The notes beneath the pieces were generated by a model. The model ran no database searches and was not told the DNA's origin. It saw nothing but the letters and a program-made list of their open reading frames with translations. Below, piece after piece: positions 555-4,430 of a stretch of DNA of 49,658 bases. The stretch is taken from positions 1 to 49,658 of the forward strand of contig JAHBMJ010000298.1 of assembly GCA_018398765.1 (NCBI GenBank), given 5' to 3'. The stretch's first letter is position 1, and every line of letters starts with the position of its first letter. Source of the stretch: Chromera velia (taxonomy: Eukaryota). The translations under genes and the position numbers were made by a program.

Positions 555-3500
555 CCCACCAGAGAAGATTCCACAAGGACTCGATCCACCTCCCCGACAA
601 AGCACAACTGGAGTCCTAAATCCTGCATACATATATATGAGAAGGAGGGGAGAAAATCTATGAGCATTCACCATGGTACATCCTTTCCTGACGCCCAGCC
701 TGACGCCGCATGACGCACTACAACAACTTCACACAATCTAACAAAGTGGACTCCAAAGTAGGACTTAGTGGAATTCAAAGTGACTTTTAAATTTACTATA
801 TTCTAGCTTCATTATAAAGTAAAACTAGGTTACTTAAAGCAATCTAAAGTTTTTTACAGCATTTAAAATCGTTATTTCTGTGCGAATCTGCTCAAATGTG
901 CTCAAAAGACTGGTTGATTAGCTAAGGAAAAATTACGATCACCGCGGTACGTGGAAGTTAGTGAATGTTACCTACAAAAAAATACACAGGCACAACACTA
1001 ATAGATACGTTCAACAGCAACGTTTAGCGCCGCCAATCAAGTACAAAGAATTGCTTCTTCTGCAAAGGAAACAGTGCAGGAAGGAGGGCTTCACAGCTAG
1101 GCTGGTCAGACCGGACAGGAGACGGTCAGCAGGGGCCGGAGAGGATTCCAAAGAACAGAGCACAGAGACAACATAATTCTATTCACAAAGAACTCACACT
1201 ACACGGCGTAAAAGCTTGCAAATCCTTCTGCATGTATCAATGAGAAACTGTGAAAAAGAAGGACAGGTCTGTAGGTAGATCCAGATGTTCAGAGGGAGAC
1301 CAGTACGGAGTGCCACAAATGAGAAAGGATGAGCGAGTAAGAAACACTTGCGTCGGGATAGTATGCACCGCTTTGAAAGACTGAGACACACGGAGCAAGT
1401 AGAAGACATTCAAATACATGAAAGCTGAGCGATTGGTCTGGGTGGAAAAATGTCTGGCACGACTGAGAGCTCTGCAAAGCTTCAGAAGAGGCGGTCAAAA
1501 AATAGAGGCTCCAGCAGACTCTCTATCAACCCTCTCTCAGTGACCTCCCTTGTACGTTTCTGTCAAGCTCCTAGCAGAACAAAGAAGCTGGATGCTAAGC
1601 AAATCATCATATAAAGCGAGAGAGCAAGCCGCGCTTCCTTAACTAACCTGCAGGTGTTCCCAAGTCTCCGTCCACCAACACCTGCAAACACGGAGGGACA
1701 GGCGTTCACACTTTGTACAATCAAGGAAGCACTTCTATCCAGCTTATTCTGCACGTACAAGGTCCCAAGGAAAAAACCAAGAGCCTAAGAAGCAGCGGGT
1801 CCGGACAGGCTGACCTGGGGGTTCAAACTTGACCCCGGGGCTCCCAAGACTGTGACCTGCAAGGAAAGAGTAAGGAGAGCGATGAGGGCAGCAGTACTTT
1901 AATACCTAAATAAGGCTGGCAGCCCTTCCCCGCTTGAACAGGAGGAGAAGCAGCAAGCAGGAAGACGTTAAAAACAAGACTAAGACGGCTGGTGTCCACT
2001 GGACCTACCTCCAAGCTCCACTTCATGCCAACCCGAGGGGACCCAGCAACTGTTGTTGCAGCCATCTCCTCTAGAGCCCCGAAAGTGCACTCCCAAAAAA
2101 AAAGTCAAAACCGAGAAAACGCTCTGTCAGACATCTTCTAAAACCGTTAGAAGACATCTGACAGAGCGCTTTTTGTGACAACATTTATGTGGGAAAAGTC
2201 CGTTTGCTCAGAGGTTCAGAACTCCGCAGTTTTGAACCTGTGGACCTTCAAGATGGACAAGAGACTTCAGATCCGATTATTGGCCAACAAAGGCAAAGTC
2301 GGCTGCGTGCGTCGAAGGGGCAGGGTGCCGCCACCCCCTCTGGCCCCGTGGCGGCGCCTCCCGGACCCACGATGAGCCCATGTCTGGACCTGGCGGCGGG
2401 GGGGTTTGACCCCCCTTGCCCAAGGTTCAGAAGTGCAGACTTCTGAACCTTAGGCAAGGGGGGTCAAACCCCCCCGCCGCCAGGTCCAGACATGGGCTCA
2501 TCGTGGGTCCGGGAGGCGCCGCCACGGGGCCAGAGGGGGTGGCGGCACCCTGCCCCTTCGACGCACGCAGCCGACTTTGCCTTTGTTGGCCAATAATCGG
2601 ATCTGAAGTCTCTTGTCCATCTTGAAGGTCCACAGGTTCAAAACTGCGGAGTTCTGAACCTCTGAGCAAACGGACTTTTCCCACATAAATGTTATCACAA
2701 AAAGCGCTCTGTCAGATGTCTTCTAACGATTTTAGAAGATGTCTGACAGAGCGTTTTCTCGGTTTTGACTTTTTTTTCGGGAGTGCACTTTCGGGGCTCT
2801 GGAGGAGACGGCTGCAACAACAGTTGCTGGGTCCCCTCGGGTTGGCATGAAGTGGAGCTTGGAGGTGGATCCAGTGGACACCAGCCGTCTTAGTCTTGTT
2901 TTTAACGTCTTCCTGCTTGCTGCTTCTCCTCTTGTTCAAGCGAGGAAGGGCTGCCAGCCTTATCTAGGTATTAAAGTACTGCTGCCCTCATCGCTCTCCT
3001 TACTCTTTCCTTGCAGGTCACAGTCTTGGGAGCCCCGGGGTCAAGTTTGAACCCCCAGGTCAGCCTGTCCGGACCCGCTGCTTCTTAGGCTCTTGGTTTT
3101 TTCCTTGGGACCTTGTGCATGCAGAATAAGCTGGACAGAAGTGCTTCCTTGATTGTACAAAGCGTGAATGCCTGTCCTTCCGTGTTTGCAGGTGTTGGTG
3201 GACGGAGACTTGGGAACACCTGCAGATTAGTTAAGGAAGCGCGGCTTGCTCTCTCGCTTTATATGATGATTTGCTTAGCATCCAGCTTCTTTGTTCTGCT
3301 AGGAGCTTGACAGAAACGTACAAGGGAGGTCACTGAGAGAGGGTTGATGGAGAGTCTGCTGGAGCCTCTATTTTTTGACCGCCTCTTCTGAAGCTTTGCA
3401 GAGCTCTCAGTCGTGCCAGACATTTTTCCACCCAGAACAATCGCTCAGCTTTCATGTATTTGAATGTCTTTTACTTGCTCCATGTGTCTCAGTCTTTCAA

Positions 3501-4430
3501 AGCGGTGCATACTATCCCGATGCAAGTGTTTCTTACTCGCTCATCCTTTCTCATTTGTGGCACTCCGTACTGGTCTCCCTCTGAACATCTGGATCTACCT
3601 ACAGACCTGTCCTTCTTTTTCATAGTTTCTCATTGACAGATGCAGAAGGATTTGCAAGCTTTTACGCCGTGTAGTGTGAGTTCTTTGTGAATAGAATTAT
3701 GTTGTCTCTGTGCTCTGTTCTTTGGAATCCTCTCCGGCCCCTGCTGACCGTCTCCTGTCCGGTCTGACCAGCCTAACTGTGAAGCCCTCCTTCCTGCACG
3801 GTTTCCCTTGCAGAAGAAGCAATTCTTTATACTTGATTGGCGGCGCTAAACGTTGCTGTTAAGCATATCCATGAGTGTTGTGCCTGTGTATTTCTTTGCA
3901 GGTAACATTCACTAACTTCCACGTGCCGCGGTGATCGTAATTTTTCCCACTATGCACCTTAGCTAATCAACCAGTCTTTTGAGCACATTTGAGCAGATTT
4001 GCACAGAAGTAAGGATTTTAAATGCTCTAAAAAACTTTAGAGTGCTTTAAATAACCTAGTTTTACTTTATAATGAAGCTAAAATATAGTAAATTTAAAAG
4101 TTACTTTGAATTCCACTAAGTCCTACTTGGGAGTCCACTCTGTTATCTGTAGATGGGCAGAGACGGGACTGTATACTCAATGGAAGAGCTTAGAGATAAA
4201 GGCAGCTCCACCTGCCTGACAAAGCATAAAAGGAGTTCCAAATCCTGCGTATACACACGCCAGAAGTAGAGGACAAACCGTATCAACATTCAGCAAGTGG
4301 CATCCTTTTTTGACGTAATGCAACAACTTTATACAATCTGTACATCTGCAGATCGAGACGACCGGACTCACCAGAAGAGGGAGTCACCAAGATAGTTCCC
4401 GCTCCCCGACAAAGCACAACAGAAGTTTCA
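555..4430. repeat. Degenerate ~190-bp tandem repeat (about 2.3 units) interrupted by the 740-4144 insertion
   Basis: Motif cc(a/g)c..cc(c/t)gacaaagca recurs at ~586, ~4208 and ~4399; ggagt.c.aaatcctgc.ta at ~620 and ~4231; caacaactt.a.acaatct at 721-739 and 4321-4339. Confidence 0.75.
740..4144. mobile_element. Fully palindromic (foldback) non-autonomous DNA element, 3405 bp, AAC...GTT ends, 4-bp TSD ATCT
   Basis: Arms 740-2434 and 2439-4144 are reverse complements around a 4-nt loop GCAG (mirror ORF pairs sum to 4873). The right arm has an 11-bp insertion near 3948. ATCT lies at 736-739 and 4145-4148. A neighbouring tandem-repeat unit shows the empty site acaatctgta at ~4333. Confidence 0.9.

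What the first reader, a model, noticed from the sequence alone, without database searches (positions are those of the whole stretch)
740..4144. A 3.4-kb near-perfect palindrome with a 4-nt loop that inserted as a unit
Seen: arms of ~1.7 kb and loop GCAG (2435-2438). The flanks rejoin across ATCT to restore a unit of the ~190-bp tandem repeat (caacaacttcacacaatct|gtagat versus intact caacaactttatacaatctgtacat at 4321), which confirms the boundaries and TSD internally. Known: long palindromes with tiny spacers are normally unstable (cruciform and hairpin cleavage). Inference: an element with two copies of one end that still transposed; read-through transcription would give ~1.7 kb of dsRNA.
Basis: partly seen in the sequence, partly recalled or inferred. 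Interest (0 to 1): 0.8.

Follow-up and report, generated by a model that had tools for sequence, protein, structure and literature searches.

The report
Foldback transposon copy with re-copied arm
This 3.4-kb mirror-image stretch in an algal genome is one copy of an abundant, apparently non-coding mobile DNA family; its tiny loop is a short hairpin that the whole family carries, and the copy likely lost its normal centre and had one arm re-copied from the other after it had inserted.

Summary
The palindrome is in the sequence: arms 740-2434 and 2439-4144, 48 mismatches, one 11-nt indel, loop GCAG, and a 4-bp ATCT duplication. A contig reading the empty site and 11 contigs with other flanks fix the end at 740. 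The host is likely Chromera velia. The arm belongs to a high-copy family.

The 4-nt apex is not the family's normal state. Most contigs cross a 12-bp-stem hairpin (2423-2450) and then continue into a G-run sequence absent here. A second window element (32319-35860; AAC ends, 4-bp TSD, centred palindromic core) shows what such a full core looks like.

The arms have two ages. The outer ~360 bp differ by 6.1% and the inner ~1,330 bp by 1.9% (p=0.002). Only the inner part shares rare alleles between arms (17 of 19 listed sites).

Best reading (0.5): a long-armed non-autonomous DNA transposon inserted here, then folded back in place at its own hairpin, losing the centre. No transposase was found. 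No listed contig bridges this apex. Outward transcripts from the two arms are identical, not complementary, so dsRNA needs read-through.

The parts
736..739 (+). left target-site duplication ATCT
   Evidence: empty site with a single ATCT in X3 record 18
4145..4148 (+). right target-site duplication ATCT
740..2434 (+). left arm; end 5'-AAC, AT-rich terminus; member of a high-copy family
   Evidence: summed contig depth rises from 738 to 48,325 (X1), 478 to 14,681 (X2) and 15 to 533 (X3) across 739/740; 11 X2 contigs carry other flanks before 740
2439..4144 (-). right arm, inverted copy of the left arm with 11 extra nt at 3948-3958
2435..2438 (.). loop GCAG
2423..2450 (.). hairpin A: perfect 12-bp stem plus 4-nt loop, present in ordinary family members, which continue after 2450 into a C + G-run + TCCGACC sequence absent here
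   Evidence: depth X1 4,968 at 2444-2450 to 401 at 2451-2457; X2 598 to 47; loose ends behind 2450/2451 in X1, X2, X5
2398..2411 (+). outer core module, G-run + TTTGACC; counterpart of G-run + TGGACC at the edge of the core of element 2
   Evidence: sequence; resemblance is architectural, local alignment of the cores is at or near shuffle level
740..1100 (+). outer, older-looking part of the arm (mirror about 3773-4144): 6.1% arm-to-arm difference, no listed shared rare allele
1101..2434 (+). inner, younger-looking part of the arm (mirror 2439-3772): 1.9% difference, 17 of 19 listed family-variant sites shared by both arms
777..787 (+). subterminal motif AAAGTGACTTT, at nearly the same distance from the end in element 2 (38 versus 37 nt)
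2120..2242 (.). two further hairpins (2120-2168; 2209-2242, the latter resembling hairpin A) near the likely transcript start
   Evidence: (z -7.1 for 2080-2438)
972..1647 (-). GT-AG intron of the outward family transcript (676 nt); donor mutated in the right arm
   Evidence: joint 969/1646 CT..AC in one X7 contig; mismatch at 1647
1857..2008 (-). second inferred GT-AG intron of the outward transcript
   Evidence: X7 loose end before 2007
2009..2089 (-). exon-like segment used as 27 internal residues of an unrelated predicted protein P0002, ending at the same donor
263..559 (-). intron of the multi-copy host gene (host exon about 622-560); the element sits in the intron upstream of that exon
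   Evidence: joint 262/560 and loose end behind 622 in X7
32319..35860 (.). element 2, a related comparator: 3,542 bp, AAC..GTT ends, ~48-bp TIR, TSD CAAG, unlike arms
33971..34221 (.). centred palindromic core of element 2 with nested hairpins and G-run + T(G/C)(G/C)GACC modules; contains a 6-N gap

Best explanation
This is one copy of a high-copy, likely non-autonomous cut-and-paste DNA transposon family (AAC ends, 4-bp target duplication) whose members carry a short hairpin in a longer central core, and this copy likely became a 4-nt-loop palindrome after insertion, by fold-back repair at that hairpin. Shown: the palindrome, the TSD, an empty site, many other insertion sites, the 12-bp hairpin in ordinary members with a different continuation, and two divergence levels along the arms. 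Inferred steps: (1) a long-armed element with a full core was inserted into a host intron by a transposase acting in trans, making the ATCT duplication; (2) both arms aged to about 3% each; (3) a break at or right of hairpin A exposed it, the 3' end folded back and copied about 1.35 kb of one arm; (4) the new strand re-annealed to the old opposite arm near 1100/3773, so the centre was lost, the inner arms were reset to identity, and the old outer ends and TSD were kept; (5) about 1% further change per arm, including a mismatch 13 bp from the loop, would now damp cruciform breakage.
For: The apex coincides with a hairpin that ordinary members carry, and they depart from the window right after it (loose ends behind 2450/2451 in 6 X1, 3 X2 and 1 X5 contigs; depth at 2454 only 175 in X1 and 43 in X2). 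Change point at about 1100: 22 of 361 versus 26 of 1,334 mismatches, permutation p=0.002, although the outer part has less GC and CpG. Of 21 listed arm sites where the family majority differs from the left arm, 17 of 19 inner ones are shared by both arms and 0 of 2 outer ones (0 of 3 with the indel); Fisher p=0.029 or 0.006. The model predicts about 28 shared inner sites; 17 are seen in a cut table. Other two-armed copies are indicated by 3 of 8 listed joints being opposite-strand (940/1989, 1201/2366, 1906/2383), and one such contig runs from 2404 into right-arm sequence. There is no lasting depth step near 1100. Fold-back priming from inverted repeats of 5-9 bp with 3-12-bp spacers is documented in repair-deficient yeast (PMC7999016 section 3.1.2).
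Against: The two-age test is post hoc and uses 21 arm rows from a table showing 40 of 253 variant rows, chosen by the tool. The whole structure of an ordinary member was not seen: only about 40 letters beyond 2450 are known. One X5 contig leaves the mirror image at 2477 into unrelated sequence, at the same core edge as element 2, which fits members with unlike arms. First-bin depth is 1.9x (X1) and 1.65x (X2) the next bin, but 0.43x in X3, so short shared ends are neither shown nor excluded. No listed contig bridges this apex or this copy's own junctions, and some window alleles are absent from X1 contigs (1472, 2272). Ordinary gene conversion plus a separate slippage deletion would give the same end state. 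No transposase was identified.
Confidence: 0.5

Rival explanations
1. Fold-back at hairpin A happened in a donor copy elsewhere (possibly one with unlike arms, like element 2). This gave a two-left-ended palindrome that was then mobilised in trans and inserted here as a unit.
For: Both ends are intact, with the same terminal motifs. The apex sits at the natural hairpin. Both arms share rare alleles. One X5 contig and element 2 suggest members with unlike arms exist.
Against: It predicts one age along the arms and shared alleles right to the ends. Instead the outer 361 nt are three times more divergent and show no listed shared allele. Depth past the hairpin is at most a few single-contig equivalents, so 4-nt-apex palindromes are not an amplified subfamily.
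Confidence: 0.22
2. The family is a long-armed foldback with two inverted copies of hairpin A around a centre. Because A is self-complementary, the two copies are also direct repeats, and replication slippage between them deleted the centre. Inner-arm similarity comes from separate gene conversion between the arms.
For: Element 2's core has this A-centre-A' layout. X5 record 20 has a C-run before an A copy. Opposite-strand joints show other two-armed copies. Conversion between palindrome arms is known (PMC7999016 passage on Y palindromes).
Against: It needs two events where fold-back needs one. The change point looks like a single tract of about 1.35 kb reaching the apex (inner quarters hold 6, 9, 8 and 3 mismatches).
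Confidence: 0.2
3. Assembly artefact: two separate family copies, or a fold-back chimeric library molecule, were joined at hairpin A.
For: The family is high-copy. No listed contig bridges the apex. The published assembly of this species was built from short reads with gap filling (PMC4501334 passages); whether the window comes from that assembly was not established.
Against: A library chimera would give identical arms, not 48 differences and an indel; the longest identical run is 241 nt. Two unrelated copies would not share 17 of 19 rare alleles. Nor would their flanks rejoin, with a matching 4-bp duplication, into a site seen empty in another run.
Confidence: 0.06

Closest known systems
Foldback (FB)-type DNA transposons (Drosophila FB, Galileo, FARE, Tm1)
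   Same: Very long inverted arms, a target-site duplication, non-autonomous copies, and a structural class that arose repeatedly in different transposase groups (PMC3169594 passages).
   Different: FB arms are composite, with tandem sub-repeats, and Tm1 makes 9-bp TSDs. Here TRF finds no array in the arms, the TSD is 4 bp, and the arms carry an outward, apparently spliced transcript and a hairpin core.
C. elegans Tc4 and Tc6 fold-back elements
   Same: Nearly the whole element is one palindrome, and Tc4 transposes (title and Tc4 passages in PMC11071193; sizes of about 1.6 kb and short spacers are recalled, the original paper was not held).
   Different: Tc4 duplicates TNA within CTNAG. This element duplicates 4 bp with no fixed sequence (ATCT; CAAG in element 2), is about twice as long, and its 4-nt loop is a derived state.
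Kolobok superfamily
   Same: 5'-RR..YY-3' termini and 4-bp duplications; the KolobokP lineage has 3-5-bp duplications without strong target preference (PMC9587614 passages).
   Different: Canonical Kolobok duplicates TTAA, not met here. No long terminal direct repeats as in KolobokP. No transposase to test.
Short-inverted-repeat fold-back priming (palindromic duplication in yeast and mammalian cells)
   Same: A pre-existing short stem at the apex, unique sequence beyond it in the non-palindromic state, and a long copied arm (PMC7999016 section 3.1.2).
   Different: There it yields dicentric or amplified chromosomes. Here the product would have been closed locally inside a transposon, because the element's own opposite arm offered a re-entry point (inferred).

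Membership tests
TIR cut-and-paste DNA transposon (general) | inverted ends with a target-site duplication | tested here: met
   ATCT on both sides, empty site seen
TIR cut-and-paste DNA transposon (general) | dispersed copies with the same end and different flanks | tested here: met
   11 X2 contigs (agreement 0.41) and 1 X3 contig with loose ends before 740
TIR cut-and-paste DNA transposon (general) | a cognate transposase in the element or in an autonomous partner | tested here: inconclusive
   0 of 43 ORFs from window 1-5450 (29 in the arms) reached a Pfam cut-off; the inferred spliced product has no open frame over 58 codons; the genome was not available
Foldback-type elements | very long terminal inverted repeats | tested here: met
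   1.7-kb arms in this copy; whether this is the family rule is only suggested (joints)
Foldback-type elements | composite TIR with tandem sub-repeats | tested here: not met
   no TRF array in 740-4144; only short AAGT-type motifs recur in the first 110 nt
Kolobok | 5'-RR..YY-3' termini | tested here: met
   AA..TT in both elements
Kolobok | TTAA target duplication | tested here: not met
   ATCT and CAAG
Kolobok | Kolobok DDD/E transposase | not testable with these tools
   no autonomous member in hand
Mutator-like foldbacks (Tm1) | 9-bp TSD | tested here: not met
   4-bp TSD
Tc4 | TNA duplication in CTNAG | tested here: not met
   versus PMC11071193 passage
Same superfamily as element 2 (Repbase rule for non-autonomous elements) | same TSD length | tested here: met
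   4 bp in both
Same superfamily as element 2 (Repbase rule for non-autonomous elements) | terminal positions 1-11 alike with at most 1 mismatch | tested here: not met
   4 mismatches in 11, read; rule from PMC4455052 passage. The link rests instead on the subterminal motif, about 150 bp of left-end similarity (score 77 versus shuffle max 59), size and core layout
LTR or solo LTR | TG..CA termini, direct repeats | tested here: not met
   AA..TT termini, inverted arms; the feature is recalled, and also named in the PMC9587614 passage
Penelope-like retroelement (recalled features) | RT or GIY-YIG coding, or hammerhead-bearing pLTR | tested here: inconclusive
   no Pfam hit; no ribozyme among 5 Rfam matches at E<=1, all generic hairpin miRNA models below gathering score; sharp common end with subterminal motifs fits a DNA transposon better
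Short-IR fold-back palindrome | pre-existing short inverted repeat at the apex in the non-palindromic parent | tested here: met
Short-IR fold-back palindrome | arises from a break next to the short IR | not testable with these tools
   inferred only

The most novel reading that the evidence does not exclude
The two window elements represent an undescribed group of ~3.5-kb DNA transposons (AAC..GTT ends, 4-bp TSD) whose exactly centred core of G-run/GACC modules and nested hairpins is a working self-priming or nicking origin. Fold-back copying from the core would then be part of how these elements replicate and regenerate their arms, in the manner of rolling-hairpin replication, and not an accident of repair.
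Probability: 0.12. Interest if true: 0.8.

Novelty: new variant of a known kind. Interest (0 to 1): 0.42.

Why it matters
Kilobase palindromes with tiny loops are expected to break and be lost (PMC10164571 passage). This one appears to have lasted long enough for about 2% divergence, and it preserves a readable record of how it formed: apex at a native hairpin, and a two-age arm. It would be a natural example of fold-back repair closed locally inside a transposon. It also points to an abundant, unclassified TIR family with a centred hairpin core in a close relative of apicomplexans. The published survey lists 6.3 Mb of 'NA DNA class 2' repeats in that genome without describing families (PMC4501334 supplement 11). 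As a single decayed non-coding copy, its direct biological weight is small.

Tried and rejected
No whole genome was held, so full-length family members could not be read.

Exact-pattern scans found 0 loci: hairpin A in metagenome and viral contigs; a terminal 25-mer in metagenome and prokaryote genome contigs.

No RNA holder was listed on record; RNA runs are guesses. Run X8 laid 0 contigs on 2290-2490, which is no proof of absence.

Pfam: nothing at cut-off for 43 ORFs near the finding, 29 others in the window, or P0001 and P0002.

The 93-aa outward ORF had no relative at near length. Its one longer hit, P0002, is not a transposase by Pfam, PDB or Atlas.

The ORF at 14684-15805 has a DxxH-like motif (recalled as transposase-type) but only 3 other relatives, all unnamed. 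No link to this element was found.

Internal arms of the two elements, and the two arms of element 2, show no similarity above local-shuffle controls. An apparent colinear alignment against plain shuffles was rejected as a composition effect.

A 2-bp TSD parse with ends TAACA..TGTTA was rejected because other flanks end in C before 740. Splice-signal asymmetry is clear for the arm and for element 2's right arm but not its left, so divergent transcription of element 2 is not claimed.

Earlier scan findings: none returned. Literature searches for a description of this family found none. Supplement files 13-16 of PMC4501334 were not searched, and Repbase entries could not be checked.

Full report
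Observation. The left arm (740-2434) and right arm (2439-4144) align at 96.5%, with 48 substitutions (40 transitions) and one 11-nt gap, around the loop GCAG. ATCT flanks both ends. The only Ns in the window lie elsewhere. Rejoining the flanks restores a degenerate host repeat with offsets of 191 and 213 bp at about 70% identity. A window ORF is 100% identical to a protein labelled Chromera velia, so the host is likely that alga.

Boundaries and family. Contigs of four public runs were laid on 1-2445. Summed depth jumps at 739/740 in the three deeper runs: X1 738 to 48,325, X2 478 to 14,681, X3 15 to 533. The longest listed single contigs have depth about 27-62 in X1 and 7-29 in X2. The tool warns that summed depth is no copy number, but the arm is clearly a very abundant repeat, and the flank is itself multi-copy. 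Eleven X2 contigs and one X3 contig carry unrelated flanks before 740, and their last letter is C, which fixes the end at AAC and the duplication at 4 bp. One X3 contig runs 462-739 and continues into the right-flank sequence, an empty site, probably of a paralogous host copy.

Transcription and coding. In run X7 (RNA by guess) one contig joins 969 to 1646 across a minus-strand GT-AG intron. Loose ends imply further introns at 2008-1857 and about 1813-1682. A predicted protein from elsewhere in the genome, P0002, uses 2089-2009 as 27 internal residues, ending at the same donor. So family members are likely transcribed outward from the centre and spliced. The inferred product has no frame over 58 codons, and 0 of 43 ORFs reach a Pfam cut-off. 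The same run shows a host intron at 559-263 and an exon junction at 622, so the host repeat is likely an exon-plus-intron unit and the element sits in an intron. Outward transcripts of the two arms would be the same sequence; dsRNA needs read-through, which was not shown.

The apex is derived. Laying 2290-2490 shows family depth running through the loop to 2450 and then falling (X1 4,968 to 401; X2 598 to 47). Loose ends behind 2450/2451 in X1 (6 contigs), X2 (3) and X5 (1) read C, a G-run, then a TCCGACC-type motif. Thus 2423-2450 is a perfect 12-bp hairpin native to ordinary members, whose centre goes on. No variant at or above 2% is listed between 2421 and 2450. No listed contig bridges this copy's apex with 31 letters on each side, but 403 pieces were not shown.

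A comparator in the same window. Element 2 (32319-35860, 3,542 bp) has AAC..GTT ends, a ~48-bp TIR, TSD CAAG, and the same subterminal motif at 37 versus 38 nt from the end. It has a ~250-bp palindromic core 1,767 and 1,774 nt from its ends, built as G-run/TGGACC, hairpin, G-run/TCCGACC, central hairpin, then the mirror image. The family of the finding shows the same order: G-run/TTTGACC, hairpin A, G-run/TCCGACC. Left ends are similar over about 150 bp (score 77, shuffle maximum 59). Internal arms are not, and the Repbase terminal rule is not met (4 mismatches in 11; rule from PMC4455052 passage). The kinship is therefore likely, not proven.

Are ordinary members long-armed? For: 3 of 8 listed joints join the arm to itself on the opposite strand, and one of them runs from 2404 into right-arm sequence. 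No departure at the core edge or at an inner TIR edge is among the listed X1 or X2 loose ends (170 and 10 rows not shown). Against: one X5 contig leaves the mirror image at 2477, the same core edge as in element 2, and first-bin depth is raised in X1 and X2, though not X3. Both forms may exist.

Two ages in the arms. Mismatches per fifth, outer to inner, are 21, 7, 9, 8 and 3. The best change point is about 1100: 6.1% outside, 1.9% inside, permutation p=0.002, with lower GC and CpG outside. Of the 21 arm rows in the cut variant table (40 of 253 rows shown; the 19 flank rows set aside), both arms share the minority allele at 17 of 19 inner sites and 0 of 2 outer sites. The outer indel also has the right arm family-like (Fisher p=0.029, or 0.006 with the indel). 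This fits arms that aged about 3% each, after which the inner 1.35 kb was reset by copying and aged about 1% more. The test was devised after seeing the data.

Mechanism. One event explains the apex position, the lost centre and the reset inner arms: fold-back priming at hairpin A with re-entry into the old opposite arm (0.5). Stems of 5-9 bp with 3-12-bp spacers can prime such copying in repair-deficient yeast (PMC7999016 section 3.1.2, read). Rivals are formation elsewhere followed by transposition (0.22), slippage between two hairpin copies plus gene conversion (0.2), and misassembly (0.06). Divergence, and a mismatch near the centre, lower inverted-repeat instability in yeast (PMC10164571 passages). 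The mismatch at 2421/2452 may therefore help explain persistence (inference).

Comparison and novelty. Whole-element palindromes that transpose are known: Foldback-type elements (PMC3169594 passages) and Tc4 (PMC11071193 passages; its dimensions and Tc6 are recalled). Termini and TSD length fit Kolobok, but TTAA does not (PMC9587614 passages). Without a transposase the family stays unclassified. My searches found no description of it (listings only). The genome paper gives only class totals (PMC4501334 passages and supplement 11; files 13-16 not searched), and Repbase could not be checked. Verdict: a real feature and a new variant of a known kind; interest 0.42.

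Noticed in passing
window 32319-35860: Second AAC-ended element with 4-bp TSD CAAG, ~48-bp TIR, an exactly centred ~250-bp palindromic core (33971-34221, with a 6-N gap and an apparent short duplication beside it) and a 35-bp tandem array in its right arm (34733-35318).
   Followed up: partly
window 1-739 and 4149-4480: The host is a multi-copy minus-strand gene-like repeat built from 191-213-bp exon-plus-intron units (63-nt exon), followed by an exon encoding a hydrophobic stretch; family not identified.
   Followed up: partly
window 14684-15805 (+): 373-aa ORF with a DxxH-like motif (recalled as transposase-type); no Pfam hit and only 3 other unnamed relatives.
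   Followed up: partly
window 7918-7968 and 22266-22317: 51-bp inverted match at 83% identity, 14.4 kb apart; a possible old TIR pair, no AAC ends seen.
   Followed up: no
window 29354-31238 and 37860-39625: Two copies of another repeat in mixed direct and inverted pieces (30462-31231 with 38819-39603 at 92%; 29816-30451 with 38846-38230 at 83%; 37860-38230 with 39625-39269 at 82%); a degenerate long-inverted-repeat element.
   Followed up: no
window 12780-13050: GC-rich patch with local inverted and direct repeats between AT-rich regions, resembling the centre of another element.
   Followed up: no
window 13614-13704 and 19181-19271: 91-bp repeat at 82% identity next to CATT microsatellite arrays.
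   Followed up: no
protein P0002, residues 55-81: A predicted 1,083-aa protein from elsewhere in the genome includes the arm's exon 2089-2009; possible exonisation of a family copy, or a gene-model artefact.
   Followed up: partly
window 24220-28969 (-): Several long ORFs of 170-400 aa interrupted by AC/AG microsatellite introns, likely one intron-rich host gene; no Pfam hit at cut-off.
   Followed up: partly
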